DNA of 64,000 nt from Heptranchias perlo. Its lineage: Eukaryota. The notes beneath the pieces were generated by a model that saw only the letters and a program-made list of their open reading frames with translations, had not been told where the DNA came from and made no database searches. Below, one piece after another: positions 29,596 through 55,958 of the stretch. Numbering within the stretch: the stretch's first letter is position 1; every line of letters begins with the position of its first letter. Location of the stretch: positions 23,622,001-23,686,000 of the forward strand of contig NC_090336.1 in assembly GCF_035084215.1 (NCBI RefSeq), read 5' to 3'. The position numbers and the translations under genes are program-made.

Positions 29596-29789
29596 CGCTT
29601 CGAGCCCAGACAGTAGCTTCAACCCCTTTCCCCCCCTTCCCGGGGCTGCGCCTCAACCTCTCCCCGCTTTGCCCTCACTCCCTGCCCGGGGCTGTAGTCT
29701 CCTGGCTCCCTGCCTAAATTTCCTACCCCTTCTCTCTCCACACTCAGACTCTCCAATTTCAGTAACACATCCAGCGGCTGGCGGCTAGC

Positions 29790-35620: not shown

Positions 35621-36205
35621 AAGTCATGTCATTAGGAAAATAGGATTGACTGCCTACCTGAGTGAAATAAAATGAAACTCTCAATATCCTCAAGTCTCCT
35701 GCGGTCCTCCTGATAAAATTAAGAACCAGGAAAGGAGGACACCTTTCCCAAATTCTTTGATGCAGCATATATTCCACCGACAATGGAGACTATTACAATC
35801 ACACCGGATCGATCCTTCAGGATGGTGCTTGATTTAAGTGTTGACTAAATACTGAAAGTCTCTGATAACACACTAAACTAAGTAGCTCTCATCAAATCCT
35901 CCAACACTAAAGCCAGCCCGTGTAAATGGTACACCCCCACTATACCGGCACGGAGAGTCCTAGCACAGTAAGTGCTTGTGGATCTCATGGCACATCCTGT
36001 AATTAATCTCCATGTTGAAACGGCATCCACTGCACATCACTCAGCAGCTTGCTTAATATCAGTTTCCCCACTAATCCCCCGATCCCTTGTCCTGCAAGCC
36101 CACTCCCGAGCATTTTTAGGCTGTCCTGACAACCTCTCTCTCCCTCTTTCCCTTCTCCTCCTCCTCTCTCCCTGTCTGCTCTCCTCCCATCTCCATCCTC
36201 CCTTT

Positions 36206-36953
36206 TGTAAGAATATTGGAAATAGGGAAAAAATGACATCTTTTTCTTAATGCTACTAACCATCATGCTCTGCAGGTTGTGCTGCATATTTTGCTGAGTG
36301 TGTGGCTTATTTTGCTGAATTGTAAACTGTTAACTTTTGACTAGTGACTGACCCTTGTTACCCTCATTGTGAGGCAAGGCAGCTATGTGGTAAAAGAGGA
36401 ACAATGACCCAAAAAGCAGAACACTAACCCAAAGATAACGATAAGACCAGGACAATGATGAGATAGCTAGACGAGTGCGGTCAAATAAACTGGCCACCTT
36501 GAAAAAAAACATTTCAAAGGGTCTTATGGTTAGATGAGTAATGCTTAAACAAGTTGTCCATCTTGAATTCTTTGAAAAACAACCTTGTTCATTTATAAGG
36601 GCCTTATGAATATTATTCCATATATGGTGTGAGGTTCCTGCCGGGGAGACATAAAAACCCAATGTATTCTGAGCTCAGGGCAGAGGAATCAGTGAAATTC
36701 ACCCAGCTGTCAGAAGTACACCTATCTGTCTGAAGGTAACACCATTGTCAGAAGAACACCCAGCTGTCAGAAGGACACCTGACTGTCGGAAAACAACCAT
36801 GTCACCAAATTAATTACAAACTCTGCCCAGAGATTAAATGGGATAATATTGTTTTGATCTTTATTGTCTAATATTCGATACCTTTACATGTTTGATTTGA
36901 CTAAATAAATGAGACATTGATTACCATTTGGTGTCATATCCGAATCTGTTATA
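36206..36953 (+). repeat. 5' LTR (~748 bp)
   Basis: Homologous to 49253-49649 plus 52985-53282. TATA-like CATAAAAA at ~36650, AATAAA at 36904, ~19-bp CAGCTGTCAGAAG repeats at 36700-36790; ends TGTTATA (the 3' LTR ends TGTTACA). Confidence 0.92.
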
Positions 36954-36956
36954 AAT

Positions 36957-36974
36957 TGGCGAGCCAGCCAGGAG
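36957..36974 (+). promoter_or_regulatory. Primer-binding site complementary to the 3' end of tRNA-Arg(ACG)
   Basis: TGGCGAGCCAGCCAGGAG lies 3 nt after the LTR and is the reverse complement of the vertebrate tRNA-Arg(ACG) end ..CTCCTGGCTGGCTCG-CCA. Confidence 0.88.
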
Positions 36975-37090
36975 GTGACTAATCAATGTTCCGTGTTGAC
37001 ATCTAAAGGAAAATACATTTAAATATTGACAGGCGATCACAAAAAACATGAATTGTTCAAATTCCGCAAGTGAGGTTTTGTTTAATATAA

Positions 37091-38620
37091 GTGATCGTGA
37101 CAAGTGTCTATGAAATGTTAGAGAGAAAATGGAAAAAGGAACTAACGGGGTCTGGGGAACCTCTAGAATTTATCTCCAAAATAGTGGAGAAGAGTGAGGC
37201 TTATGAGATGGCCATAGAATGGCTCGAGGATCAAGTTCAAAATAAAAAGATGAAGGAGAGAGTGGTAAAAGGACCCTTATGTGGGCGGCAAATTTGTGCT
37301 CACTTAAGATTGAGGAACGTATTAAACAATTAAAAGAGGAAAATAGGAATCAGTTAGAGGAAACTAAGAGACTGTCAGACAGAAGAGTCAGATGAAAAAG
37401 TAAGATTGAAAGAACGTCTGACTGATGTCTTGACTATTCTGGAGAGTTCACAGTTGGTGGCTAAAATTGTGACAGCACAGGGAGTACAGAGTCAGAAAAT
37501 ATTACAAGAGAGAGATAGACTTACAGAGAAAAATGGGAGACTAGAATCAGAACTCACCGACTGTAGAGGGACTTTAAGGGAGAGTATGTGTCGTCCCATG
37601 AATTTGGTAGACCACATACTGTGTAAGTTAATGATTCAGGAGTTACAGGGCAAATTAGGCTGACAAGGGGCTGTGATGGCTACTGTAACATGAGGAGTTA
37701 TGGGAGGAACAGAAGGTTCACTGGAACACCGACGGGAAAGGTGAGGTGGATTGGAATGGTCTGGCAGGAGAAATGAGGAATGGGGATCACCAAGGTTGGG
37801 ACTATAACAGTCCTGACTACGGAGGGCTAACCGTACCTGTGAATGTGATTACCACTACCACCAGGCATACTGGGCAGGGTAACGTGACTAGTATAGTTCA
37901 GGAGGAGAAATCAATTTCCCCTCCTGAGACAGAGGTTCTGTCTCGGGAGCCAGGATCCAAGGGGAATGGTCCAATAGAAGTGTCTTGCCAAATTAACTCT
38001 TAATATGGCCCACCAGGAATTGTCCAAAATAGACCAAAAAAGGGGAAAATGGACTGCCTGCCAACAAACAATTAAGGTCTCCCTTAACCCCAATATGCAT
38101 GTCCCTGCCACCCCCTTGCAGGAGTTTAAACGCGATATTATGCATATATTGGGTATGAATCAAATTAATGTCATTAGTCAATGTGGACAAACCACTCAGG
38201 GACCACAGGAACACCCATGAGCCATTGGAAGTAGGTTATGGAACCTGTTTATGCTGACTCAACCCAGAAGGGTAGAGGCTCCAACCATAGACTCCGAGGT
38301 ATTTAAACAGGTACCCCCACTGGTGAAAACTGCCCTTGGTGTAAGTGTCAATAAAATGACCCAGTGGATGAATCTCTTGGAGGCGGCAGTTCCACCCTGG
38401 GGAATCCTAAATGACCATATGCCCAAAGCTCCACAGAAAAAAAAAATCGATATCGGCCGTAGAGGGATCAATAGGTTGGGGTAATAGTAGGAGTAATATG
38501 GTAAACGATAGGCATAACGACAGGTGTTTCTGGTATCAGAAAATGGGTCATTATGCCATCGACCGCTGGAGTAATGTAGTGCCCCCTGGCAAAGAAACAA
38601 TGAGGGAAATCAGACCATGA
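37091..38620 (+). pseudogene. Decayed gag (N-terminal helical/coiled-coil region, capsid-like part, degenerate zinc knuckle)
   Basis: Series of same-strand ORF fragments after the PBS. MHR-like QGPQEHP*AIGSRLW, and RCFWYQKMGHYAIDR as an eroded CX2CX4HX4C at ~38520-38565. Confidence 0.7.
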
Positions 38621-38739
38621 CTCCCCAAAAACCAGGAGGGGCGGAACAAAAATTAGATAAATTAATAACCCTCCTGACTACCCAACAATAGAAACAGATA
38701 CAACAGTTCCAAGAACAGTAGAGAGTTAAGAGAGATAGT

Positions 38740-39219
38740 ATGTGTACAATGACCCAAAAGGATGGTGATGGAGACGAGGTGGCAGAGGAGGCTGCGGACT
38801 ATCGCTCCCCAGACAACACAATGACACTAGGAGCCAATGATGAGAATAAAGTAGATTGTGAAGGCTTAGATGAGGACTGCGAAATGGAAGTCGCAGAAGT
38901 CAAAGAATCGTTTAAGCAAACCCAAAGCACGTTACAGAGTAAAAGACCAGAAGGGAGAGAGGCAGTCGTAGAGGTTCTAGAAAGTGAACAAAGAAAGAAA
39001 CTAGAACTCCCGGCTGGTTCTCCAGTTACCTCTTTTCCATTCACTATACCCCATCCTTCCAGCAACAGCGGGAAGGAGAAAACCTTTAAACAAGAGAGCC
39101 AATACAAGCCTGATAAATGGTCTTTCCAACATGAGATTTTAAATCGTAACAAAATTGAGTTAAGTAGGAAATATCAGAGAATGAAAATTCAGATGAAAGT
39201 TAAAGGACAGTTGATTTAA
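38740..39219 (+). CDS. 159-aa acidic ORF of unknown function between gag and the env-like region
   Basis: ATG-initiated open frame inside the provirus; no recognisable protease or RT motif. Confidence 0.3.
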   Translation: MCTMTQKDGDGDEVAEEAADYRSPDNTMTLGANDENKVDCEGLDEDCEMEVAEVKESFKQTQSTLQSKRPEGREAVVEVLESEQRKKLELPAGSPVTSFPFTIPHPSSNSGKEKTFKQESQYKPDKWSFQHEILNRNKIELSRKYQRMKIQMKVKGQLI

Positions 39220-40019
39220 AACAAGGGGAAAAGGTGGAAAGGGAAGATTCCGTCTCTCCTACTGTTACAAGCTACTAGATTTTTCTTTAGTTTTTAATGT
39301 ACTATCTCTTTAAGTGTGTGCACTCTGCAGCACCATTTCCTCTTTTTTTCACAAATCTGAAGCAGTGTTCACCCTTTGTAATCCCAGTCGTTTAGTATAT
39401 GCATTTCAATCGTTTTGTTTTCTAAGCATAGTACCACTGTTAAATGTACAAGAAATCAAAAGAGTTTGGAGAATTATTATACAGTTACGAGACTATTTGC
39501 TACGTTATGTCTGTGAAATTTGAGATCTAAATCCATTGTTTTCTTTTCAAAGTTTCTTTAAATTTAGTTAAAATCTGCTGTGAGGAAGCTGGCTCTGCCT
39601 TCTTTTCAGTCAGTACTGCAAAGAAGTTTTAAAATCATGTTGCCTCACATAGAGTTAATTGCACATTTGGGAAGACTTTGACCCTGTGGGTCTACAGCCG
39701 TCCAATGGGGAAAATTAGTCGGTAGGAAAGTGCAGAGTGTCCAAGATGACAGACAGTTGAGACGTCAGGTCGAGATTGTGTAAGGTGCTCTATTCCAAAT
39801 CTCCAAAGAAACTGGAGGCGGAAGAAATAATTCTTTGTGCTTTCTTCACAAATGAAGCAAAATGACAATGTGATATTAATTACATTTATTATTGGGGAGT
39901 ATAATATGACAGGGAATTAGAAACTGTAAAATGTGCCATAAGTAAATAATGTCCAATTTATGATACAGTGGCAAATGCCCATAAGAGATATGCAGATAAA
40001 ATGGGAACGAGAGGTAGAG

Positions 40020-40950
40020 AGTGATAGACAACAAAACAGAGGTATAAATTAGACCAGAGGAAGGCATCTTCAGGACGAGACAATTACAGTCGGATGCTGT
40101 GGGATGGGTAGGTGCGATAACAGGAATGTCAATTTGGAATCAGGAGGATGTTGAGACTATAAAGAAGCATACGCGTCATTAGAAACATACACAGGCCAAA
40201 CTGGTCAATGCACCAATCCTAAACACAATCAATGAGCTAGCACGGGAAGAACAATATGCAATGCACAACACTGCCAAGTTTTTCATTCAGACGCAGGGTA
40301 AAATAAATTAAACGATATACATGGGAAACTAGCGAGCAAAGGGAATAGGACGGGCAACCATTTGTACAGCATAAGGAATATTTATTGATCAAGAGACTTG
40401 CTGATATAAGGGACTATGACCTTGTCCATTGGTATCCTAGGGGAAATAGTGAAACAAATGTGAGGGTTGAAGTTCCACCTGTATAAACAATCCACAATCT
40501 GGGGTACTATTCACCCAATGGGCCAAGTTAGGGATAAGAATAAACCTTGATTTTTACCCTGTCCTTACCTAGCGTGGATGTTACGACCCGAATATTTTCT
40601 GAATTGGCAGAACCACGTTCTGTGGGATATTTAGAGAGAGAAGTGTATAAGCAAAGGGTAAATTCGCCTAAGTTAATGATGTATGATAGGAAAACTGCAT
40701 CATCAAATTTGGATTGTTGTGTCAAGCAGGGGAACCGATACCTAGGCCGAAGTGGATGTTTTCCTGCACGCATACCTGAGTGCTGAAGGTATAGACGTAA
40801 TTTACAATTGAGACTAATGTAATTAAAACTTTAAAATGGCAAGAAAAGATACGGGAATGAATTTGTGGTGACACAAACACAAGAAGCTTGTTATAATTTG
40901 CAGTTAGAGATTATTCCTGCTCTGTTAAATTTTTCCTTCTGTATCTTTTG
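40020..40950 (+). pseudogene. env/fusion-glycoprotein-like module 1 (decayed)
   Basis: RTRQ|LQSDAVGWVGAITGMSIWNQEDVETIK (cleavage site and fusion-peptide-like stretch, 40072-40160), then RSVGYLEREVYKQRVNSPK and CVKQGNRYL, which align with modules 2 and 3. Confidence 0.6.
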
Positions 40951-41837
40951 TCTTCTGATTTATGTAATTGAATGTATGTAGATTTTTTATCACACTAAGA
41001 GAAATGGTACACAGTTTTACCAAGCGCATTCGGGAAGAGATTCAGGTGAACTCACAGAGACAATGGGAACATGATAAAACATTGCACAACCAAATAGAAG
41101 GATTACTTAAAGGAATGAATAGGCAGATGGGGGATGTTATATCAGAACAAGGAGAGTCCCTGATTTTAATAAAACGACTGGTGGAGAGACAGGTTAGGGA
41201 TATTGGCAATCGTTCAGAATAACGAAGACAAAGGAACAGCTGATCTTAAAGGCAATTATGTATGGAAAGTTCTTACAATGTTCAGATTCAAAGGGGGTTA
41301 ATGCTGTAGAGAACAATTGGATCCCACAGTTTATATTGGACAAACAAATGAAAATCTAGAAATCAGATGGGGATATGGATTGATGTAAGGCACATAGACT
41401 GAGATTGGTGTATTATGCTAAGAAGCTTTGCAAGCCAAGTGATATTATTTCACGACTGATTCCTGTGGTTGTGGCAATACCATTGCTATCTGCTGATGTA
41501 AAACCAATGAAAGTATTTAAAGTGGAATCGATGGGCTTGTTGGAGGATGATATACATGAGGAATTTGTAAATTATCCGAAAATCGAAGATATCAGTACAG
41601 GGGAAAAGAATGATTCTGGATTGCACCAAACACTTCATGTATTGTTCCTGGAAAAGTGGATCCTGGTTGTGCAGATGTGACATTTCATAAAGTGCACGGC
41701 TAGATTGTGGTTTCACCCTGCATGAAGAATCCTCTAATTGTACTATTAAATTTGAAAAGCACCAATGTTGTTTATTTGGAGAGAGGAAGGAATTGCATTA
41801 CAACTAATAAGAAGCACTACACACAAGGCGGCACCAT

Positions 41838-44800
41838 GAGGTAAAGTGTAACCCCCAAAAATGGGTGGGTTGGGGGTGAGTGGGGAGTAAAAATCCTCCA
41901 TTTTCAGAGGGGGACCACATCCTGGCTCTAACATGCCTACTTCTGGGTTTAATCAATTTGGGCAGAGATAAGAAATAGTAAAGGCAAAAAGTCACTTGTG
42001 GGAGTAGTTTATAGGCCCCCTAACAGTAACAATACTGTAGGACAGGGTATACAGGAAGAAATAATGGGAGCTTGTGAGAAAGGAACATCGATAATCATGG
42101 GTGATTTTAATCTACATATAGATTGGAAGAATCTGATTGGCAAAAGTAGCCTGGAAGATGAGTTCATAGAGTGCTTTCAGGACAGTTTCTTAGAGCAGCA
42201 CGTTCTAGTGCCAACCAGAGAGCAGGCTATTCTAGATCTGGTAATGTGTAATGAGACAGGATTAATTAATGCCCTCATTGTAAAGGAGCCTCCAGGTAGC
42301 AGTGATCACAATATGATTGAATTTCACATTCAGTTTGAGGGAGAGGAGAGTAGGTCAAAGACTAGTGTTTTAAACTTAAATAAGGGCAATTATGAAGGCA
42401 TGAAGACAGAGCTGGCTAAAGTGAACTGGGAAATTAAGTTAACGGATAGGTCAGTAGAGATGCAGTGGCAGACATTTAATGAGATATTTCATAACACTCA
42501 GCAAAGATACATTCCAGAGAGAAAGAAAGACTCTAGGGGAAGGACGTACCATCTGTGGCTAACTAAGGAAGTTAAAGATAGTATCAAATTGAAAGAAAAA
42601 GCATACAATTCTGCGAAGATTAGTGGCAGGTCAGAAGATTGGACAGAATATAAAAAACAGCAAAGAATGACAAAAATGATTAATAAGGTAGGGAGAGTAT
42701 GAGAGAAAGCTAGCTAGAAATATAAAAACAGATAGTAAGAGTTTCTACAGGTATTTAAAAAGGAAAAGAGTAAGTAAAGTGAGCTTTTTTCCTCTAGAGA
42801 GTGAGTCTGGGGAATTAACAATGGAGAATAAGGAAATGGCGGATGAATTGAACAGATATTTTGCATCTGTCTTCACTGTAGAAGATACAAATAACATGCC
42901 AGAAATAATTGTGAATCAAGAGGTGAAAGGGAGGGAGGAATTTAAAACATTTACAATCACCAGGGAAAGGGTTCTGAAAAAAATATTAGAACTAAAAGCT
43001 GATAAGTCCTCAGGTCCTGACTGACTACATCCCAGGGACTTAAAAGAAGTGGCTGCAGAGATAGTAGATGCATTGGTATTAATTTTCCAAAATTCCCTAG
43101 ATTCTGGAAGGGTCCCATCAGATTGGAAAATAGTGAATGTAACTCCTCTATTCAAGAAAGGAGGGAGACAGAAAGCAGTTAGCTTAACATTTGTCCTAGG
43201 GAAAATGCTAGAATATATTATTCAGGGGGTTATAGCAGGGCACTTAGAAAATCTCAATGCAATCAGGCAGAGTCAACATGGCTTTGTAAAAGGGAAATCG
43301 TGTTTGACTAATTTATTAGAGTTCTTTGAGGAAATAACAAGCAAAGTGAATAAAGGGGATCCTGTGGATGTGGTGTACTTGGATTTCCAGAAGGCTTTTG
43401 GCAAAGTGCCACATCAAAGACTACTACACAAAATAAGAGCTCATGGTGTAGGGGTTAACATATTAACATGGATAAAGATTGGTTAGCTAACAGGAAACAG
43501 AGAGAAGGCATAAATGGGTCATTTTCAGGTTGGCAAGATGTAATGACTGGAGTGCCACAGGGATCAGTGCTGGGGCCTCAACTATTTACAATCTATATCA
43601 AATGACTTGGATGAAGGGACCGAATGTATGGTTGCTAAATTTGCCGATGACACAAAGGTAGGTAGGAAAGTAAGTTGTGAAGAGGACATAAGGAGTCTGC
43701 AAAAGGGATATAGATAGGTTAAGTGAGTGGGCAAAAATTTGGCAGATGAAGTATAATGTGAGCTTGCCCACTTTGGCAGGAGGAATAGAAAAGCAGTATA
43801 TTATTTAAATGGAGAAAGATTGCAGAACTCTGAGGTACAGAGGGATCTGGGTGTCCTAGTACATGAATCACAAAAAGTTAGTATACGGGTGCAGCAAGTG
43901 ATTAGGAAAACAAATGGAATATTGTCATTTATTGCAAGGGGAATGGAATATAAAAGTAGAGATGTTTTGCTACAGTTGTACAGGGCATTGGTGAGACCAC
44001 ATCTAGAATACTGTGTGCAGTTTTGGTCTCCTTATTTAAGAAAAGACATAATTGCTTTGGAGGCAGTTCAGAGAAGGTTCACTTGACTGATTCCTGGGAT
44101 GAAGGGGTTATCTTATGAGGAAAGGTTAGACAAGTTTGGCCTGTATACACTGGAGTTTAGAAGAATGAGAGGTGATCTTATTGAAACATATAAGATCCTG
44201 AGGGGACTAGAAGGGGTAGATGCTGAGAGGATGTTTCCCCTTGTGGGAGAGATTAGAACTATGGGCCACAGTTTAAAAATAAGGGGTCTCCATTTAAGAT
44301 AGAGATGAGGAGAATTTTTTTCTCTCAGAGGGTCGTGAGTCTGTGGAACTTCCTTCCCCAGAGAGCGGTGGAGGCAGGGTCATTGAATATTTTTAAGCCT
44401 GAGTTAGATAGATTCCTGATTAACAAGGGAGTCAAAGGTTATAGTAGGTAGACGGGAAAGTATGGTTGAGGTCACAATCAGATCGGCCATGATCTTATCA
44501 AATGGCAGAGCAGGCTCGAGGGGCCGAATGGCCTATTCCTGCTCTTAGTTCGTACGTTCGTATGTAACCCAGACAGGTTTGTCTGTGTGTGGAGTGCAGA
44601 CACCAAGAAGTCTCTCCCCCACTCAAAGCTGGCAGGGCCGATACTTAAAAGGGCAATGTATCTCATTGAGATACTTGAGGTACTTAATATTTTGTGTATT
44701 GGAATAATAAAACAAATTTAACCTTACCTGTTCAGGTTTCCCATCGCTTCCCATTCACGTCAGGTGAAAGCAGGCGGAAAGGGCCGGATCCATGAGCCGA

Positions 44801-45280
44801 GTCCCTTTATTGCGCTGCTTGTGGGCCCGGAGGAGCAGGAGTGCTTTATCCAGGCCCAACAAACTTACCTGACCAACAGGATCCCTGTGATTGGCCGACC
44901 ACCCACTATCCGTTCCGCAGCACCCCCCCCGCCCAAACTAATCCCTGGCTCCCCCCGCCCTCCGATCATCTCCCTGGCGCACCCCAAACTCCTCCGCTGC
45001 CCGATTTTCTTCCTGGCCTCCCCCCGCCCCCCCACGATCTTCTCCCCGGCCTATGATCCCTCCCTCCCTCCGCTCCCAGGCTCCAACAGGCCTTCATGCC
45101 CGACAGCCAGCCAGCCTGTCATTCAGGCTGTCTGCCGGGTGCGAAACCCAAAAGTGCAATTGAAGGGCCTCATTAAGGTCAGGATCACAGATTGTGACCC
45201 GCCCACTTACCTTCCGGGTTTCACATCCGGAAATCTTCCGCCCCACCGCTCTCTTCCTGGCGGGAATTTAAATTTACCCC
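41838..45280. mobile_element. Non-autonomous TIR element (PIF/Harbinger-like MITE) inserted in env module 2 and itself interrupted by a CR1
   Basis: Imperfect TIRs GAGGTAAAGTGTAA / TTTAAATTTACCCC, flanked by CAT at 41835-37 and 45281-83. Removal restores ACC-ATA-TGT-CCG (TICP). Confidence 0.65.
41953..44564 (+). mobile_element. 5'-truncated CR1 LINE (partial APE endonuclease plus RT, with stops and frameshifts)
   Basis: GVVYRPP, IMGDFN, SDHNMIEF, QHGFVKGKSCLTNL, FADD, HLEYCVQFWSP; 3' tail TTCGTACGTTCGTATG. Confidence 0.95.
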
Positions 45281-45543
45281 CATATGTCCGGGTTGGCGGT
45301 AACATTTTGCTTTACACCAACCAGAATTATTAAACTGGGGCTAAAATATTTTGCCTGTTGCGGCCACAATGTTACAAAAATGCAAGTAAACATTTCCCTC
45401 CAGTCAGAAAGCTTATGAGCGGTTGTAAATTTTGGCTGCAAAAGCATTACGTGTACTTAAACGTGCTGTCTGGAACATTAGATGGAGGGAGGGCCACTTA
45501 GAACTGACAGCCTTATTGAAGGATAGATGAGAGACAGAGACCC

Positions 45544-48500
45544 TTGGGGTTGTCTTACTCTCAAGGTGGGGTAGTTGCTAACCCAGAATACAAATGGTCA
45601 CTGCCCACCAACGGACAGGCGGGTTTTTATTCCACCTCAAATGAAAGGACGGTGTGGGCTGGAATGAAAATAGAACAGACACCGAGAGTGGCCATGGAGG
45701 ATTATGTTATCCCACCCCGACAAAGGATGGCTCAACTTCTCCTAACAATACCATCCTCTGACCATTGGAGTGTGTACCAAGTGGATGGAGAAACGGTATA
45801 TGCATCCTCTTACAGTATGCCATATATCGGGCTTCCTGAACCCAACGGATTGACTGAGCTAGTGTGGCAACTTTATTTTTCCTATGTTTATGAACTACAT
45901 GAGGGACGATATAGTTGCACTGGAACACTAGAATTAGAGAATCCATCACAAGTTAAAAAGAATTCTATAAAGATTCAAGAACAACAAATATATCACGTGG
46001 TTGAATCTAGTTGTGACAGGGCTTTATTTTCTGACTGATTGCGTAACGGTCTAGTGGTTCAGGCTACTCATTAAGTTGTGTACACAAATGTGAGATATGA
46101 GGTGGTCCTGGTTATTGTCGATTTAAGTAATGTAATGCTTCTGCAAGATTTATGTGACCTGCATTATGTTAACTGGGCTCGTGCGGTATTAATTCAGATA
46201 TTAGATGGGTTCCACAAGCAGACAGCAGGGAGACAATGGAAGGAAAAACGAGATGGGGACCAAATCGTGCACACTCGCTGACCCAGATCTATCACTGGCT
46301 GGGGGAGCTGCCGCAAGAGCAGTATTTAACAGGTTGGATATAGAAAATCAGTATTATCATCAGGGAAGACTGACAGGACAACTTAAGAAGTTATTAACCA
46401 AAATAAATGAGAGTAACCTGGACCTGATGGATGAGGGGTCAGAGGGTCTCTTATCCTTTAATGAAATAGGCCAGGGTGTCCATGCAAGCCGGAATAAGAT
46501 TAATGAAATCATATACAATCAAGAGACCATTGCATCTTGGGTCTCTAATGAGGTGGTGTCCAGCATGTATCTGAGCCTCTGGCAGGAAAGAATAGCAGAA
46601 GGGCTAAGAGATGTAGTTGAGGGAAAATTACCCACTTGGATAACAGATGAACAATTGGTTGCCTGGCGAAACTAACCTGTGCCTAGTAAGACTTTGCGAA
46701 GGTGCATATTGCCAAAGAACTTTGCAAACATTGTGGGGCCCAGGAAATCTTTGGGTTGAGAAAGGCATTGATGTTAGGGAACTTGGGGAAATAAATAGTG
46801 ATGTCTTGAGGAGTGTACATATTACAGAGAGGGAGGTGCTGGAAGTCTTAACGCGCATCAAGGTAGATAAATCTCCGGGACCTGATGAAATGTATCCCAG
46901 GACGTTATGGGAGGTTAGGGAGGAAATTGCGGGTCCCCTAGCAGAGATATTTGAATCATCCACCGCTACAGGTGAGGTGCCTGAAGATTGGAGGGTAGCA
47001 AATGTTGTGCCTTTGTTTAAGAAGGGCGGCAGGGAAAAGCCTGGGAACTACAGACCAGTGAGCCTGACATCTGTAGTGGGTAAGTTGTTAGAGGGTATTC
47101 TGAGGGACAGAATCTACAGGCATTTGGAGAGGCAGGGACTAATTAGGAACAGTCAGCATGGTTTTGTGAGAGGAAAATCATGTCTCACGAATTTGATTGA
47201 GTTTTTTGAAGGGGTAACCAAGAAGATAGATGAGGGCTGTGCAGTAGACGTGGTCTACATGGACTTCAGCAAAGCATTTGACAAGGTACCGCATGGTAGG
47301 TTGTTACATAAGGTTAAATCTCATGGGATCCAAGGTGAGGTAGCCAATTGGATACAAAATTGGCTTGACGACAGAAGACAGAGGGTGGTTGTCGAGGGTT
47401 GTTTTTCAAACTGGATGCCTGTGTCCAGCGGTGTGCCTCAGGGATCGGTGCTGGGTCCGCTGTTATTTGTTATTTATATTAATGATTTGGATGAGAATTT
47501 AGGAGGCATGGTTAGTAAGTTTGCAGATGACACCAAGATTGGTGGCATTGTGGACAGTGAAGAAGGTTATCTAGGATTGCAACGGGATCTTGATAAATTG
47601 GGCCAGTGGGCCGATGAATGGCAGATGGAGTTTAATTTAGATAAATGTGAGGTGATGCATTTTGGTAGATCGAATCGGGCCAGGACCTACTCCGTTAATG
47701 GTAGGGCGTTGGGGAGAGTTATAGAACAAAGAGATCTAGGAGTACAGATTCATAACTCCTTGAAAGTGGAGTCACAGGTGGATAGGGTGGTGAAGAAGGC
47801 ATTCAGCATGCTTGGTTTCATTGGTCAGAACATTGAATGCAGGAGTTGGGATGTCTTGTTGAAGTTGTACAGGGCATTGGTGAGGCCACACTTGGAGTAC
47901 TGTGTACAGTTCTGGTCACCCTATTATAGAAAGGATATTATTAAACTAGAAAGAGTGCAGAAAAGATTTACTAGGATGCTACCGGGACTTGATGGTTTGA
48001 CTTACAGGGAGAGGTTAGACAGACTGGGACTTTATTCCCTGGAGAGTAGGAGGTTAAGGGGTGATCTTATAGAAGTCTATAAAATAATGAGGGGCATAGA
48101 TAAGGTCGATAGTCAAAATCTTTTCCCAAAGGTAGGGGAGTCTATAACGAGGGGGCACAGATTTAAGGTGAGAGGGGAGAGATACAAAAGGATCCAGAGG
48201 GGCAATTTTTTCACTCAAAGGGTGGTGAGTGTCTGGAACGAGCTGCCAGAGGCAGTAGTAGAGGCGGGTACAATTTTGTCTTTTAAAAAGCATTTGGACA
48301 GTTACATGGGGAAGATGGGTATCGAGGGATATGGGCCAAATGCAGGCAATTGGGACTAGCTTAGTGGTATAAACTGGGCGACATGGACATGTTGGGCCGA
48401 AGGGCCTGTTTCCATGTTGTAACTTCTATGATTCTATGATTGAGCTCCCTTGTCTGGGCAACCAATCTGGCCTACCTCTATGCCGTATCATCGGTGGGGT

Positions 48501-49198
48501 GGTTAAAAGGAACCACCTTGACTGAATTCCATCAACCCCCCTGCCCTATTTGGTCTTGGGAGACCAGTGGGGGGCAATGAAACTTCAACCTTGTGTTCAA
48601 TGGGGCGATGACTGGGTTTGTGAAACTAATTACACTCAAGACCACCAGTCATGTGGATATATGTCTGCCGATGAATCACCCTTTTGTAACATGCGGGTAA
48701 TGTCCCACTGGCAGGGTACTCATATTGCTTACCAAGGAAATGGGAAATACTGTTACACGACCACTGAGAAGACCTTCACACATGGAGATAGAGACTGTCC
48801 ACTGACATGGCCCATGGGATGAGTAATTCATGTGGATCTGTGGGGAGTTGATGGGGGAAGCATTACAGGCTGTAATTCGATTTGGGCACCTCATTCCCCC
48901 TTTATCATTCAGTCTTAAAAGCATCTTGGATAGAAGTGTTACCTCTTAGAAACATCTGGTCAAAATGCAGCAGGATAACAAGGAAATAAAGAAAGGTATT
49001 CAAACCCTTGGGGCTAAATCATGGTGGAAGAATATCTATAATGCTGGTGATTCCCGATGGGCACGTTTAGCGTTGTTTGCTTTCTTGATCATACAAGTCC
49101 TGGTTACCATATCCCTAATAGTGTCTACCTGCTGGGTCTACAGGTGGGTCACCAAGTTAAAACAGAATGTGCGCCATTCCCCTATTGGACTAGATTGA
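45544..49198 (+). pseudogene. env/fusion-glycoprotein-like module 3 with N-terminal linker and C-terminal TM (split by the CR1 at 46761-48439)
   Basis: ORFs 45544 and 46078 share a frame. KEKR cleavage-like site, AGGAAARAVFNRLDIE, a heptad-like region, LPTWITDEQL, Cys-rich CVQWGDDWVC..CGY..C..GNGKYCYTT, and hydrophobic TM LALFAFLIIQVLVTISLIVSTCWVY just before the PPT. Confidence 0.8.
46761..48439 (+). mobile_element. Young 5'-truncated CR1 LINE with an uninterrupted RT frame
   Basis: Open frame to 48359 with KSPGPD, YRPVSLTS, GVPQGSVLGP and FADD; (ATTCTATG)n tail; TTGAG on both sides (46756-60, 48440-44). Confidence 0.97.
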
Positions 49199-49239
49199 TT
49201 AAATAAGTGAGGGGTTGAAGCCTTAGTCTTCTCTCCCTT

Positions 49240-49250
49240 AAGGTGGGGAA
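49240..49250 (+). promoter_or_regulatory. Polypurine tract
   Basis: AAGGTGGGGAA lies 2 nt before the 3' LTR. Confidence 0.8.
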
Positions 49251-49252
49251 TC

Positions 49253-52200
49253 TGTAAGAATATTGGAAATAGGGAAAAATTGACATTTTTTCTTAATGCT
49301 ACTAACCATCATGCTCTGCAGGTTGTGCTGCATATTTTGCTGAGCGTGTGGCTTATTTTGGTGAATTGTAAACTGTTAACTTTTGACTAGTGACTAGTGA
49401 ATCACTGTGAGGCAAGGCAGCTATGTGGTAAAAAAGGAACAATGACCCAAAAAGCAGAACAATAATCCAAAGATAATGATAAGACCAGGACAGTGACGAG
49501 ATAGCTAGACGAGTGTGGTCAAATAAACTGGCCATCTTGAGAAACAACTTGCAAAGGGTCTTGAGGTTAGATGAATAATGTTACAACAAGCTGACCATCT
49601 TGAATTCTTCAAAAAAAACAACTTTGTTAATCTAAGAACCTTATGAATAACAATAGTATAGTGGTTATGTTACTGGGCTAATAATCCAGAGGCCTGGACT
49701 AAAATCCAGAGTCATGAGTTCAAATCCCGCCACGGCAGCTGGCGAATTTAAATTCAATTAAATTCAATTAATTACAATTAAAAAAAATCTGGAATTAAAA
49801 TACTAGTATCAGTAATGATGGCCATGAAACTACCGGATTGTCGTAAAAACCCATCTGGTTCACTAATGTCCTTTAGGGAAGGAAGCCTGCCGCCCTTACC
49901 CGGTCTGGCCTATATGTGACTCCAGACCCACAGCAATGTGGTTGATTCTTAATTGCCCTCTGAAATGGCCTAGCAAGCCACTCAGTTGTAAAATCTCGCT
50001 ACGAAAAGTCATAATAAGAATAAAACCGGACGGACCACCCGGCATCGGACCACTAGGCACCGGACACGACAACGGCAAAACACCAAGCCCAGTCGACCCT
50101 GCAAGGTCCTCCTTACTAACATCTGGGGACTTGTGCCAAAATTGGGAGAGCTGTCCCACAGACTAGTCAAGCAACAGCCTGACATAGCCATACTCACAGA
50201 ATCATATCTTTCAGCCAACGTCCCAGAATCTTCCATCACCATCCCTGGGTATGTCCTGTCCCACCGGCAGGACAGACCCACCAGAGGTGGCGGTACAGTG
50301 ATATACAGTCAGGAGGGAGTGGCCCTGGGAGTCCTCAACATTGACTCTGGACCCCATGAAATCTCATGGCATCAGGTCAAACATGGGCAAGGAAACCTCC
50401 TGCTGATTACCACCTACCGTCCTCCCTCAGCTGATGAATCAGTCCTCCTCCATGTTGAACACCACTTGGAGGAAGCACTGAGGGTAGCAAGGGCACAAAA
50501 TGTACTCTGGGTGGGGGACTTCAACGTCCATCACCAAGAGTGGCTCGGTAGCACCACTACTGACCGAGCTGGCCGAGTCCTGAAGGACATAGCTGCCAGA
50601 CTGGGCCTGCGGCAGGTGGTGAGCGAACCAACACGAGGGAAAAGCTTACTTGACCTCGTCCTCACCAATCTACCTGTCGCAAATACATCTGTCCATGACA
50701 GTATTGGTAGGAGTGACCACCGCACAGTCCTCGTGGAGATGAAATCCTGTCTTCGCACTGAGGACACCATCCAACGTGTTGTGTGGCACTACCACCGTGC
50801 TAAATGGGACAGATTCAGAACAGATCTGGCAGCTCAAAACTGGGCATCCATGAGGCGCTGTGGGCCATCAGCAGCAGCAGAATTGTATTCCAGCACAATC
50901 TGTAACCTCATGGCCCGGCATATTCCTCACTCTACCATTACCAACAAGCCAGGGGATCAACCCTGGTTCAATGAGGAGTGTAGAAGAGCATGTCAGGAGC
51001 AGCACCAGGCGTACCTAAAAATGAGGTGCCAACCTGGTGAAGCTACAACTCAGGACTACATGCATGCTAAACAGCGGAAGCAACATGCTATAGACAGAGC
51101 TAAGCGATTCCACAACCAACGGATCAGATCAAAGCTCTGCAGTCCTGCCACATCCAGTCGTGAATGGTGGTGGACAATTAAACAACTAACGGGAGGAGGA
51201 GGCTCTGCAAACATCCCCATTCTCAATGATGGCGGAGTCCAGCACGTGAGTGCAAAAGACAAGGCTGAAGCGTTTGCAACCATCTTCAGCCAGAAGTGCC
51301 GAGTGGATAATCCATCTCAGCCTCCTCCCGATATCCCCACCATCACGGAAGCCAGTCTTCGGCCAATTCGATTCACTCCACGTGATATCAAGAAACGGCT
51401 AAGTGCACTGGATACAGCAAAGGCTATGGGCCCCGACAACATCCCAGCTGTAGTGCTGAAGACTTGTGCTCCAGAACTAGCTGCGCCTCTAGCCAAGCTG
51501 TTCCAGTACAGCTACAACACTGGCATCCACCCGACAATGTGGAAAATTGCCCAGGTATGTCCTGTCCACAAAAAGCAGGACAAATCCAATCCGGCCAATT
51601 ACCGCCCCATCAGTCTACTCTCAATCATCAGCAAAGTGATGGAAGGTGTCGTCGACAGTGCTATCAAGCGGCACTTACTCACCAATAACCTGCTCACCGA
51701 TGCTCAGTTTGGGTTCCGCCAGGACCACTTGGCTCCAGACCTCATTACAGCCTTGGTCCAAACATGGACAAAAGAGCTGAATTCCAGAGGTGAGGTGAGA
51801 GTGACTGCCCTTGACATCAAGGCAGCATTTGACCGAGTGTGGCACCAAGAGCCCTAGTAAAATTGAAGTCAATGGGAATCAGGGGGAAAACTCTCCAGTG
51901 GCTGGAGTCATACCTAGCACAAAGGAAGATGGTAGTGGTTGTTGGAGGCCAAGCATCTCAGCCCCAGGGCATTGCTGCAGGAGTTCCTCAGGGCAGTGTC
52001 CTAGGCCCAACCATCTTCAGCTGCTTCATCAATGACCTTCCCTCCATCATAAGGTCAGAAATGGGGATGTTCGCTGATGACTGCACAGTGTTCAGTTCCA
52101 TTCGCAACCCCTCAGATAATGAAGCAGTCCGAGCCCGCATGCAGCAAGACCTGGACAACATCCAGGCTTGGGCTGATAAGTGGCAAGTAACATTCGCGCC

Positions 52201-53282
52201 AGATAAGTGCCAGGCAATGACCATCTCCAACAAGAGAGAGTCTAACCACCTCCCCTTGACATTCAACGGCATTACCATCGCCGAATCCCCCACCATCAAC
52301 ATCCTGGGGGTCACCATTGACCAGAAACTTAACTGGACCAGCCATATAAATACTGTGGCTACGAGAGCAGGTCAGAGGCTGGGTATTCTGCGGCGAGTGA
52401 CTCACCTCCTGACTCCCCAAAGCCTTTCCACCATCTACAAGGCACAAGTCAAGAGTGTGATGGAATACTCTCCACTTGCCTGGATGAGTGCAGCTCCAAC
52501 AACACTCAAGAAGCTCGACACCATCCAAGATAAAGCAGCCCGCTTGATTGGCACCCCATCCACCACACTAAACATTCACTCCCTTCACCACCGGCGCACA
52601 GTGGCCGCAGTGTGCACCATCCACAGGATGCACTGCAGCAACTCTCCAAGGCTTCTTCGACAGCACCTCCCAAACCCGCGACCTCTACCACCTAGAAGGA
52701 CAAGGGCAGCAGGCGCATGGGAACAACACCACCTGCACGTTCCCCTCCAAGTCACACACCATCCCGACTTGGAAATATATCGCCATTCCTTCATTGTCGC
52801 TGGGTCAAAATCCTGGAACTCCCTTCCTAACAGCACTGTGGGAGAACCTTCACCACACGGACTGCAGCGGTTCAAGAAGGCGGCTCACCACCACCTTCTC
52901 GAGGGCAATTAGGGATGGGCAATAAATGCCGGCCTTGCCAGCGACGCCCACATCCCATGAACGAATAAAAAAAAATTAAAAAAAATATGGTGTGAGGTTC
53001 CTGCCCCCAGGGGGGAGCAAAAAAACCCAACGTCTTTTGAGCTCAGGGCAGAGAAATCATCAAAGACCACCCAACTGTCAGAAGAACACTTGACTATCAG
53101 CAGGCTACCTCACTGTCGGAAAACTTGAAACAACCACGTAGCCAGTTACAAACTCTGCCCAGAGATCAAACGGGGTAATATTGATTTGATCTTTGTTGTC
53201 GAATATTTTATACTTTTACATATTTTACTGTTAATAAATGAGACATTGATTACCATTTGGTGTCACACCCGAATCTGTTACA
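49253..53282 (+). repeat. 3' LTR, split into 49253-49649 and 52985-53282 by a LINE
   Basis: The two halves are collinear with the 5' LTR (..CCTTATGAATA | ATATGGTGTGAGG..). It ends in TGTTACA followed by the TSD. Confidence 0.92.
49650..52984 (+). mobile_element. Apparently full-length single-ORF LINE (APE+RT, CR1/L2-group-like) with a tRNA-like 5' head; one frameshift at ~51850
   Basis: ORFs 50133-51857 (ILTES, YRPP, GDFNVH, SDH, YRPISLL, LDIKAAFD) and 51839-52912 (GVPQGSVLGP, FADD). A-box TAGTATAGTGG at 49654, B-box GAGTTCAAATCC at 49716, A-rich tail. Confidence 0.92.
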
Positions 53283-55540
53283 CCTTTCTCATCTCTCCCG
53301 CTCACCTCCTCCACCACTTCCTCTGTCTCCCTCCCTCTCCTCTCTCCTCCCTCCCATCTGTTAACGAATGATCTGCCTTGTCTCTAAATATAATTTGGGT
53401 TCAGGCCTGTTGAATCAGACATGACTACATACATCTTAAAATCAATTTAAGCTTTTATTTGTGGCAGACTTCAAGTATACCGGCAAAGTAGCAACATGGA
53501 CCATAGCAGCATAGGAACATTCCACTATGAGGCAACCTTACCAATCAGGACACAGTGATTATCGCGGCCCTGGGAACCACCCCAACCAAGGTTTCTTTCT
53601 TCTGTGGAAGATACACTGTAGCTCCCTGTCTAGGTGCTGACTCTCTCCCTATATACCCTTCCTTATCACTACCATGTGACGGATCTGGCTGCGACTCCCC
53701 TTTGTTTTCAGGCTTCCATTAAGTTTATTACATTTGTCTGAGCCGATGGTGCCTTTTGCTAAATTAACGCTTTGGTGTTCTTGCAATCGGTACCAATAAA
53801 CATTAATTACCTTATCACTCAGCACATGCTTTTCATCTCTGATATAACTATTTGGCCTTGGGAATCTGCTGATTCCCAGAGCTGTTGGCATCGTCTTGTC
53901 TGTCCCTAGCAGCCTTTCCACATTCCCACGCAGGCTTCACCTTGATTAACTAACACTATGTGCCCCTTCTGTGTCAAGTCAACAAACAGACTTGCTTGTA
54001 TCCCTGACTATCCTTATCTCTTTAATAGAGAACCATCCGTTCAAAAGACAATCGCAACTTTGATTAGTTGTTTTAAGATACGATGGCTGAAAGGTTATAT
54101 TATGGTGCTTAACAGCCAGGAGCTGAGAATTGACACTACTACAATGTAACAAATCACTGGCAGTATTACATTAACAAACTTCATTAAATCACTTAATTTG
54201 AGCTGCATAAATCCCTGCTAGTGCCCTATTAGCCCTTTGCATACAGTTCCATTATCACCCAAAACCACCCTTTCTCCTTCTCACCACTCCCTCCCCTCAC
54301 GCCCTCGCCCTCATGCCCATCCCACTTTGTTACCCTCCCTCCTCTCTCCCTCTCTGCCATCAGCCTCTCTCTCCCCTCCTATCCTCTGTCCCTGCCTAAC
54401 ATTGTGATCAGTCTATGCTGCAATTACTCTGTTACTATGTCTGACACTTAACAGCAGCTTATTACTCGATATTTTTAGCATTTTGTACTGCTAAGATTTT
54501 CTCTTCCCACTCCTTACATAAGCAGAACTCCCTGGATATTATTAACCCATGAATTGAACCGTTTTAATGCACAGACGACTGCGTCATTTGTTTATTCACC
54601 AGTTGATCAGAACACCTTCTAGGCTGAAACCCCAGTGCTGTACAAAGGGAGTGCTGCATCTCCTAAGGTGATGCCCTGTGGACAAGACATTAAACCAGGT
54701 CCCCAACTGGTTCAGATGGTACATTTGAAGCAGAGCAGGGAACAGGTGCCAACATTTTGCCCTCAACCAACACCCACCAAAAACAGACAAACTGGTCATC
54801 TCTCTTTCTTATGTGGGATGATGTTTGTGAACCTAGATGAAGGTGATCACTGCACTTCAAAGTAATGCATTGAATGTGAAATGCTGAGATATATAAGGTG
54901 CTCTATAAGTGCAAGCCATTAGATCTTAATATGGGTACAGTTTTGTTTCACTCTATTAAAAATTGGAAAACTATCAAATACTAAATGGATCCCAGTTTCC
55001 TTACAAAGGAAGTCTTTCTCCTCATCAAAATATCAACAAGTTCAAAGGAATTTTGATCAACAATCTTCTTGTTTCATCTCTGATTCTGCAGCATCCAGCA
55101 GCGAGCTTGCTAGATGTTACTGAGCCCAATAAAGAGCTGGATTCACATCGGTCAATGGAGAATAGTGCAGGCAGGGAGGAGTTTCTGAGCCTCAGTGTGA
55201 GGGAGATGGATTAGCATAAATGAAATTATAGTTTGTAACACAGGGTGCTGGTTGGGGAGGAATGAGCGGATTTGACAGTGCCAGGGAGCCGGATGACTAT
55301 CAATGGAGATACAGTCAGTAACACGGGATACTGGCTGGGAGGAGTTACTGAGTGTCCAGATTCAGTGCTGTGAGTCAAAGAAGGAAGAGAAGAAACTGAA
55401 TTGAGAGGGCTGGCAATGTGTCCTATTCGGGAAAGGAGCTTTACCGAGCAGATTTGGCCGCAATCTCACTGGAGTGAGGTTTACTTGAAAGCTCTTACAG
55501 AAGTATCAGCCCCCAACTGGTTCGAAAGATCAGAATTGAA

Positions 55541-55670: not shown

Positions 55671-55751
55671 GATGAACTGCTAAAGCAAAGAGGGCAGGTA
55701 GAGGGAGAGAAAGAGAGAAGAAAAGAACGTGAAGGAAAGAGTGAGGACAGG

Positions 55752-55958
55752 ATGGGAAAAGGAGGAGAGAAAGGAGAAGAGGAGGGAGGATGCGAGAAAA
55801 AAATAGCCCTTTACACTTGGGAAGAGATTCAGAAGCACAATAGCAAGACGGACAAGTGGCTTGTGATTGATAGGGAAGTATATAACATCACTAACTGGGC
55901 CCTAAAACACCCGGGAGGGATACGGGTTATCAGTCACTATGCCGGAGAGGATGCAACG
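55752..55958 (+). CDS. fads2: Fatty acid desaturase 2 (delta-6-type) exon 1, cytochrome b5 domain; the rest of the gene lies beyond the window
   Basis: MGKGG start, [44 protein letters not shown]|gtaagg donor; 207 nt. Confidence 0.95.

What the first reader, a model, noticed from the sequence alone, without database searches (positions are those of the whole stretch)
40020..49198. Three tandem paralogous fusion-glycoprotein-like modules in one provirus, with a single TM anchor
Seen, after excising the nested inserts: the same ordered motif series occurs three times. Module 3 vs 2: EGLRDVVEGKLPTWITDEQL / KGVNAVENNWIPQFILDKQM; VHIAKELCK / VYYAKKLCK; LYAVSSVGWL / VFKVESMGLL; CVQWGDDWVC..CGY-x8-C / CSWKSGSWLC..CGF-x8-C; THIAYQGNGKYCYTTTEKTFTHGDRDCP / TNVVYLERGRNCITTNKKHYTQGGTICP. 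Module 1 has EPRSVGYL..NSPK and CVKQGNRYL, plus RTRQ|..GWVGAITGMSIWNQEDVE, matching module 3 KEKR..AGGAAARAVFNRLDIE. The copies are far too divergent to be a post-insertion duplication. Only module 3 ends in a clear TM, and module 2 shows no obvious fusion peptide. Known: retroviruses normally have one env, and class I fusion proteins are homotrimers. The layout (cleavage site, fusion peptide, heptad, Cys-rich region, TM) is F-protein-like rather than gamma-type Env; I see no CX6CC/ISD motif. Inference: this lineage encoded either three env paralogues or one long polyprotein that could assemble a heterotrimeric or single-chain-trimer fusogen, or secreted decoy ectodomains. I know of no described retroelement with this architecture.
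Basis: partly seen in the sequence, partly recalled or inferred. Interest (0 to 1): 0.92.

Follow-up and report, generated by a model that had tools for sequence, protein, structure and literature searches.

The report
Shark retrovirus hoarding dead envelope genes
This old shark provirus does carry three related envelope-gene pieces in a row, but they are separate and broken: two dead pieces, likely picked up from other retroviruses, sit where the enzyme gene used to be, so it likely spread as a passenger rather than as a virus with a three-part fusion protein.

Summary
The three modules are real. A profile built only from other envelope lineages hits the window at modules 1, 2 and 3, and a relative's predicted fold matches RSV, paramyxovirus F and foamy Env. 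They lie in one provirus (5-bp target duplication, no inner LTR), and the order recurs in other copies.

- Shared stops separate module 2 from module 3, so there is no polyprotein.
- Module 2 has frameshifts shared by 75-86% of copies; module 3 has none.
- Module 1 has no surface part or signal, and is probably broken too.
- Module 3 lacks its first ~100 codons, including the signal.
- Pol-bearing members of the family show only module 3. Window 38690-45570 (modules 1+2) replaces pol; 0 of 25 loci hold both.
- In a tree, module 3 groups with single-env sister families; a clade of the three modules is rejected (AU p=9e-5).

Best reading: a non-autonomous recombinant that likely captured two foreign env fragments and was copied in trans; many copies later lost module 3. 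Not a heterotrimer. The scan's earlier notes had nothing on this. Side finding: an intact env (L161) conserved at 86-90% in two other sharks, possibly domesticated.

The parts
36201..36205 (.). 5' target-site duplication (5 bp)
   Evidence: identical 5-mer at 53283-53287
36206..36953 (+). 5' LTR
   Evidence: 92% and 88.5% identical to the two parts of the 3' LTR
36957..36974 (+). primer-binding site (tRNA-Arg-like; the tRNA assignment is recalled, not tested)
   Evidence: TGG start three bases after the LTR
37090..38690 (+). gag-like region, broken; coiled-coil-like 5' part
   Evidence: shared with pol-bearing copies and 35-70% aa with sister families; no Pfam hit, so 'gag' rests on position
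38691..39219 (+). foreign acidic tail, in frame with gag at family level; start of the block that replaces pol
   Evidence: pol-type copies leave the window sequence at 38670-38692; no shared stop in that frame to ~39208
39220..40050 (+). non-coding spacer
   Evidence: shared stops in all three frames; no surface-subunit signal (median 15.1 vs control 15.6, n=28)
40053..40800 (+). module 1: env fragment from cleavage site/fusion peptide to first Cys cluster; no surface part, no anchor; probably broken in the source element
40860..41837 (+). module 2, 5' part: end of a surface subunit plus most of the fusion subunit; frameshifts shared by most copies
41838..45279 (+). later insertion(s): decayed LINE plus a second repeat
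   Evidence: absent from other copies; Exo_endo_phos_2 and RVT_1
45280..45519 (+). module 2, 3' part, ending before the second heptad and anchor; shared stops at 45499, 45505, 45517
45575..46755 (+). module 3, 5' part: the family's own env, cut at its 5' end (surface subunit, cleavage site, fusion peptide, heptad)
   Evidence: pol-type copies rejoin at 45571-45579 and carry ~100 more env codons upstream
46756..48436 (+). later insertion: young 5'-truncated LINE
   Evidence: 95-99% identical copies elsewhere; RVT_1
48437..49198 (+). module 3, 3' part with Cys-rich region, second heptad and membrane anchor (~49067-49123)
49240..49249 (+). polypurine tract
   Evidence: sequence
49253..53282 (+). 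3' LTR, split by LINE insertion(s) at ~49650-52984
53283..53287 (.). 3' target-site duplication

Best explanation
This is one old, broken provirus in which the pol gene is replaced by a block holding two dead envelope fragments, likely captured from other retrovirus lineages by recombination, placed in front of the family's own 5'-truncated env; it was likely copied in trans by pol-bearing relatives. Shown: (1) the family has a gag-pol-single-env form; (2) the window form swaps 38690-45570 for pol and the start of env; (3) modules 1 and 2 branch away from module 3 and its single-env sister families; (4) module 2 already carried frameshifts when the copies spread, module 3 did not. Inferred: the block came in by template switching during reverse transcription of co-packaged RNAs; the chimera needed only its LTRs, primer site and polypurine tract, so gag, module 3 and parts of modules 1-2 were later deleted without stopping its spread. 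It would not have made a three-part fusion protein.
For: Pol and the block exclude each other in 25 loci: 6 with pol, 17 with the block, 2 neither, 0 both (in L214 and L215 only the piece next to gag is the family's own pol). Six loci leave the window sequence at 38670-38692 and three rejoin at 45571-45579. Spacing between motif anchors: M3 in frame in 14 of 14 intervals with no majority stop; M2 out of frame in 4 of 11. A frameshift-aware profile alignment finds M2 shifts shared by 79% of 34, 81% of 36, 75% of 36, 43% of 35 and 86% of 21 copies; M3 at most 35% (26 copies). Identities: M1-M2 17%, M1-M3 19%, M2-M3 24%; M2 to other lineages up to 39%; M3 to pol-type copies 73%, to sister families 40-50%. 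Tree of 39 rows: M3 inside a 100/100 clade with single-env, pol-bearing sisters (pol in L163-L168). AU rejects M1+M2+M3 (p 9e-5) and M2+M3 (p 5.5e-4). Codon positions show near-neutral decay in all modules, third/first-second ratio 1.1-1.2. 0 of 10 loci picked by M1+M2 similarity show M3's surface or core parts in the stretches fetched.
Against: No single-env donor for M1 or M2 was found: neither has a close non-family relative among 24 other rows, and an M1 protein search gave almost only family-level identities. Capture is therefore inferred from the tree and the layout. For M1 the case for early death is weaker: shared shifts reach only 40% of 15 copies, though a stop is shared by 17 of 20 modal-length copies in one interval. 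One frame of M2 stays free of shared stops from ~41236 to 45499, so a partly out-of-register product is not excluded. The profile used to align the tree rows is weighted to the L173 lineage and may inflate M1/M2 identity to it. The tree used LG+G4 without a mixture model, and M1 has a long branch. Loci were picked by query, so the counts are not frequencies.
Confidence: 0.8

Rival explanations
1. The block was once useful: an earlier pol-less satellite expressed modules 1 and 2 as secreted, anchor-less ectodomains (decoys or receptor blockers) through splicing, and they decayed before the copies seen here spread.
For: Both modules stop before the anchor. The gag-acidic-tail frame is open at family level. 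M2 has the highest third-position excess, 1.22, though small.
Against: M1 has no surface part or signal. M2 has five shared shift sites. Both modules also lack most of the receptor-facing surface subunit. No splice evidence was obtained.
Confidence: 0.1
2. One reading: the lineage encoded three working env paralogues or one polyprotein that assembled a heterotrimeric or single-chain fusogen.
For: Three homologous modules in order, one anchor, in the window and in 7 of 29 other loci examined (at least half of M1, M2 and both M3 5' segments).
Against: Shared stops between M2 and M3. M1 to M2 spacing is out of frame in 26 of 35 copies, and all 9 in-frame rows hold a stop. M3 lacks its start and signal. 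Pol-bearing copies have one env. The three modules are not one clade. M1 and M2 lack the second heptad that a class I hairpin needs (established knowledge).
Confidence: 0.04
3. Modules 1 and 2 are very old tandem duplicates that predate the split of the sister families and were lost in every pol-bearing form.
For: No donor was found. Deep nodes of the tree are open.
Against: It needs repeated clean loss in the family's own pol form and in six sister loci. The block sits exactly in the pol slot and cuts into env. M2 is closer to other lineages (39%) than to M3 (24%).
Confidence: 0.06

Closest known systems
Lokiretroviruses (Wang and Han, PMC7947760; parts 1-2 of 4 read, passages and supplement searched)
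   Same: LTR-gag-pol-env layout with tether and RNase H; Env with basic cleavage site, fusion peptide, heptad and anchor, related to paramyxo/pneumovirus F.
   Different: One env per genome in that paper. A supplement row lists Chondrichthyes with 3 and 0, which I read as 3 genomes screened, none positive. The two Loki RT passages seen have a PFGY-x-NSP motif; this family has LPQGFHNSP. No RT tree was built.
Foamy virus Env and paramyxo/pneumovirus F, subclass Ib fusion proteins (PMC11468914, passages)
   Same: The predicted fold of the intact relative L161 (pLDDT 72) matches RSV F (Foldseek E 3e-9), NDV F (Z 8.0, rmsd 14.4, 241 aligned) and foamy Env 8rm0 (Z 7.2, rmsd 4.6, 203 aligned). A sister family's RT hits foamy Pol best (E 2e-25, against 5e-15 for the next group).
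   Different: No sequence-level hit to any solved F or Env below E 0.3. The modules here are fragments.
Env acquisition and loss by recombination in ERVs (review PMC10536682, passages)
   Same: Heterologous env acquired by template switching between co-packaged RNAs; env loss with continued spread.
   Different: The passages seen describe swaps that replace env. Here two foreign env fragments stack up in place of pol while the resident env stays, truncated.
Snakehead-retrovirus-related shark ERVs, CmiERV lineage I / clade Huo (PMC4422223 part 1 of 2; PMC6001957 passages)
   Same: Shark ERVs outside the gamma, epsilon and beta groups exist and are candidate relatives.
   Different: No direct sequence comparison was possible; placement is untested.

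Membership tests
Endogenous retrovirus (provirus) | Paired LTRs with target-site duplication, primer-binding site, polypurine tract | tested here: met
Endogenous retrovirus (provirus) | pol with RT, RNase H, integrase | tested here: not met
   0 residues of retroviral Pol matched in the window element; present in 6 family loci, so this copy is non-autonomous
Subclass Ib (F-type) fusion protein | F-like fold of the post-cleavage subunit | tested here: met
   fold of the intact relative L161; Atlas features 0.94 to PF00523 clusters; link to the modules by profile. The modules themselves were not folded.
Subclass Ib (F-type) fusion protein | Each protomer has signal, fusion peptide, two heptads and anchor | tested here: not met
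   M1 and M2 end before the second heptad and anchor; M3 lacks its start and signal
Single polyprotein / single-chain trimer | One continuous reading frame over the three modules | tested here: not met
Tandem paralogues duplicated within this lineage | The three modules form one clade | tested here: not met
   AU p 9e-5; tree
Lokiretrovirus | Env related to Mononegavirales F | tested here: met
Lokiretrovirus | RT falls in the Loki clade | tested here: inconclusive
   motif differs by eye from two Loki RT passages; best solved hit is foamy Pol; nearest named proteins are coelacanth and frog elements at 52-58%; no tree with reference viruses
Spuma-related or snakehead-related retroviruses (clades Tu/Huo) | RT phylogeny with reference viruses | not testable with these tools
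   no named reference Pol set was returned by any search
Gamma-type Env | Short TM subunit with ISD and CX6CC | tested here: not met
   post-cleavage subunit of about 430-470 aa with F-type fold; top matches are F proteins

The most novel reading that the evidence does not exclude
Before the copies seen here spread, a pol-less satellite of a shark retrovirus carried a cassette of three envelope genes from three lineages and expressed two of them as secreted or co-assembling F-type ectodomains, the first retroelement with a multi-env cassette.
Probability: 0.08. Interest if true: 0.8.

Novelty: new variant of a known kind. Interest (0 to 1): 0.38.

Why it matters
It is a clean fossil of env shuffling: one passenger element preserves envelope pieces from three distinct retrovirus lineages, two of which have no close intact relative among the loci examined. 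That shows these shark retroviruses likely co-packaged and recombined across deep divides. It also exposes a little-annotated family of F-type retroviral Env in sharks and frogs (46 hits; 7 of the 10 looked up are uncharacterized frog or shark proteins, 2 are unnamed, 1 is a chance bacterial hit), apparently outside the lokiretroviruses. It does not overturn the rule of one env and a homotrimer.

Tried and rejected
- Pfam on 13 window pieces gave nothing relevant (three queries were in a wrong frame). Pfam on 23 homologs gave only a weak Baculo_F hit (E 0.001).
- Single-sequence fold of L161 env failed (pLDDT 35).
- Sequence and profile searches of PDB found no F or Env below E 0.3. The lysozyme hit is a coiled-coil artefact.
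- The first frame count on occupancy columns drifted between frames. It was redone with modal spacings and a frameshift-aware aligner. One M3 anchor and one M2 anchor sat next to window indels and were dropped.
- Tree rows: 39 of 57 kept. Dropped: 3 copies per module, 2 short rows, 7 near-redundant L173-type rows.
- RNA: no RNA holder listed. Contigs of three runs guessed to be RNA cover family sequence in short pieces at mostly under 95% identity; nothing can be said about expression or splicing.
- No complex prediction was run.
- Separate nested proviruses for M1/M2 were rejected (no inner LTR).
- Literature: searches (0 papers; listings only; 98 was swamped by 'environment') showed no multi-env ERV. 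This is weak evidence of absence. Two papers were not held. The Anura preprint passages did not help.
- Look-ups in earlier scan notes found nothing relevant.
- Dating in years was not attempted, because no reliable shark rate is at hand; LTR K2P is 0.08-0.125.
Full report
Anatomy. The finding lies in one provirus, window 36206-53282. It has LTRs 92% and 88.5% alike (K2P 0.08 and 0.125), a primer site at 36957, a polypurine tract at 49240 and a perfect 5-bp target duplication. Three later insertions interrupt it: 41838-45279, 46756-48436 and about 49650-52984. All hold LINE RT, and other copies run straight across the first two. Between gag and the modules there is no retroviral pol. The host is a shark-like genome of 3.25 Gb; 'shark' rests on the named homologs and on earlier scan notes on this genome.

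Are the modules homologous? Yes. A related locus, L161, has one intact 780-aa env, and pieces of all three modules hit its post-cleavage part. An HMM from 60 env pieces of other lineages hits the window at M1, M2 and M3, with nothing else below E 1; reversed frames score at best -20.8 bits. M1 spans about the first 250-300 of 427 positions, M2 28-347 and M3 13-425. A surface-subunit profile scores strongly before M3 (median 89 vs 13, n=22), weakly just before M2 (26.6 vs 13.7, n=37) and not before M1 (15.1 vs 15.6, n=28). So each module is a fragment of a separate env, cut at different points.

What fold? With a 55-row alignment, L161 env folds at pLDDT 72. It matches RSV, paramyxovirus and metapneumovirus F (best E 3e-9). 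Among viral models it also matches baculovirus F and walleye and foamy Env. The structural aligner puts ten F proteins and foamy Env in its top eleven rows (Z 5.7-8.0), middling values that agree with Foldseek. This is the subclass Ib fold that PMC11468914 (passages) describes for foamy Env and F. The modules themselves were not folded.

One frame or three? I aligned 92 and 94 natural fragments and counted, without building a consensus. M3 is one frame with no shared stop from about 45520 to 49196. It is separated from M2 by stops shared by 82-100% of covering copies at 45499, 45505 and 45517. The 830 bases before M1 have shared stops in all frames. Between motif anchors, M3's modal spacing is in frame in 14 of 14 intervals. 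M2's is out of frame in 4 of 11 (13 of 37, 17 of 40, 30 of 39 and 26 of 34 copies have the modal length). A frameshift-aware alignment gives the same picture: five shared shift sites in M2 (43-86% of 21-36 copies), none above 35% in M3. M1 is less clear: shifts are shared by 40% of 15 copies and one stop by 17 of 20. Against a simple reading, one M2 frame stays stop-free from 41236 to 45499, but the homologous motifs move in and out of it. So M2, and probably M1, were already pseudogenes in the element that spread.

The parent form. L092 and L102 share the LTR, gag and M3 (71-86% DNA identity) but have pol and no M1 or M2. Four more gag-bearing loci leave the window sequence at the same point, three of them into pol. 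Across 25 loci, 6 have pol, 17 have the acidic-tail/spacer/M1/M2 block, 2 have neither and none has both. The left border is 38670-38692 (six loci) and the right border 45571-45579 (three loci). In L092 and L102 env has about 100 more codons upstream of that border, with a hydrophobic leader, so the window's M3 has lost its start and signal. M3 of pol-type and block-type copies differ no more from each other than block-type copies do among themselves (mismatch about 0.17 per site): the two forms were contemporaries.

Where did M1 and M2 come from? Mean identity is 17-24% among the modules, 39% from M2 to another lineage, and 40-50% from M3 to sister families that have pol and a single env. In a 39-row tree M3 sits inside a 100/100 clade with those sisters, while M1 and M2 are separate deep branches. 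Holding M1+M2+M3, or M2+M3, together is rejected (p 9e-5 and 5.5e-4; simple model, M1 long-branched). No donor provirus was found. Whether the two fragments arrived together or in two steps is open.

Mechanism. Shown: block-for-pol swap, separate lineages, shared breaks. Inferred from established retrovirology (PMC10536682, passages): co-packaged RNAs recombined by template switching, giving a pol-less element with intact cis signals that pol-bearing relatives copied in trans. In line with this, later deletions removed parts freely. Recurrent deletion ends fall at 37710/38510 in gag and at 45490-45570/48830 across M3. First-look candidates number 429 for M1+M2 DNA, 46 for M3 and 35 for mid-gag (only 40, 40 and 35 were scored, and query lengths differ). 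Decay is near neutral at all codon positions.

Known relatives. The Env works like lokiretrovirus and foamy Env. Membership of the lokiretroviruses is doubtful: the RT motif differs from the two Loki passages seen, and the nearest solved RT is foamy Pol. The nearest named Pol proteins are from coelacanth and frogs. Named Env homologs are uncharacterized frog and shark proteins of 440-750 aa, each with one module. I found no paper on a multi-env ERV, but the searches were weak.

Verdict. This is a new variant of a known kind, a non-autonomous recombinant ERV with stacked env fragments. Interest 0.38.

Noticed in passing
L161:1692-4034 (-), G000:C6 near 50.325-50.328 Mb: Intact 780-aa F-type env in a provirus whose pol is broken. 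Over residues 300-780 it is 90% identical to an uncharacterized Scyliorhinus torazame protein and 86% to Chiloscyllium punctatum chiPu_0008396, while a broken copy in the same genome (L172) is only 74-81% alike. Candidate domesticated env shared across shark orders; synteny and selection not tested.
   Followed up: partly
window 38691-39219: Acidic ~165-codon tail of unknown origin that continues the gag frame at family level in block-type copies; no Pfam hit and no hit in 20 other-lineage loci.
   Followed up: partly
window 37358-37663: Coiled-coil-like stretch in the 5' gag region, reminiscent of the smc-like gene reported for some lokiretroviruses; not tested.
   Followed up: no
L103:7050-7450: A deletion joins the 5' start of gag in frame to the env surface subunit.
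   Followed up: no
G000:C15 2.84-3.54 Mb (L053, L055, L056, L058, L064, L065, L076, L077): Cluster of near-identical M3-bearing copies, likely segmental duplications; left out of the codon test.
   Followed up: no
G000:C6 78.024-78.026 Mb: A 39-bp piece of M3's surface region has expanded into a tandem array.
   Followed up: no
window 29389-29652 (-) and 55671-56075 (+): Two divergently oriented cytochrome-b5-domain first exons, resembling fatty-acid desaturase genes, flank the provirus (PF00173 for the second; the gene name is recalled).
   Followed up: no
window 46756-48436 and 49992-52912: Young LINE copies with long open frames (571, 621 and 359 aa); the same LINE families have inserted into many copies of this ERV.
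   Followed up: no
P0008 and P0027 clusters: Frog genomes hold many annotated env genes of this family (16 members in the Mantella cluster, 32 in the Discoglossus cluster), suggesting young expansions.
   Followed up: no
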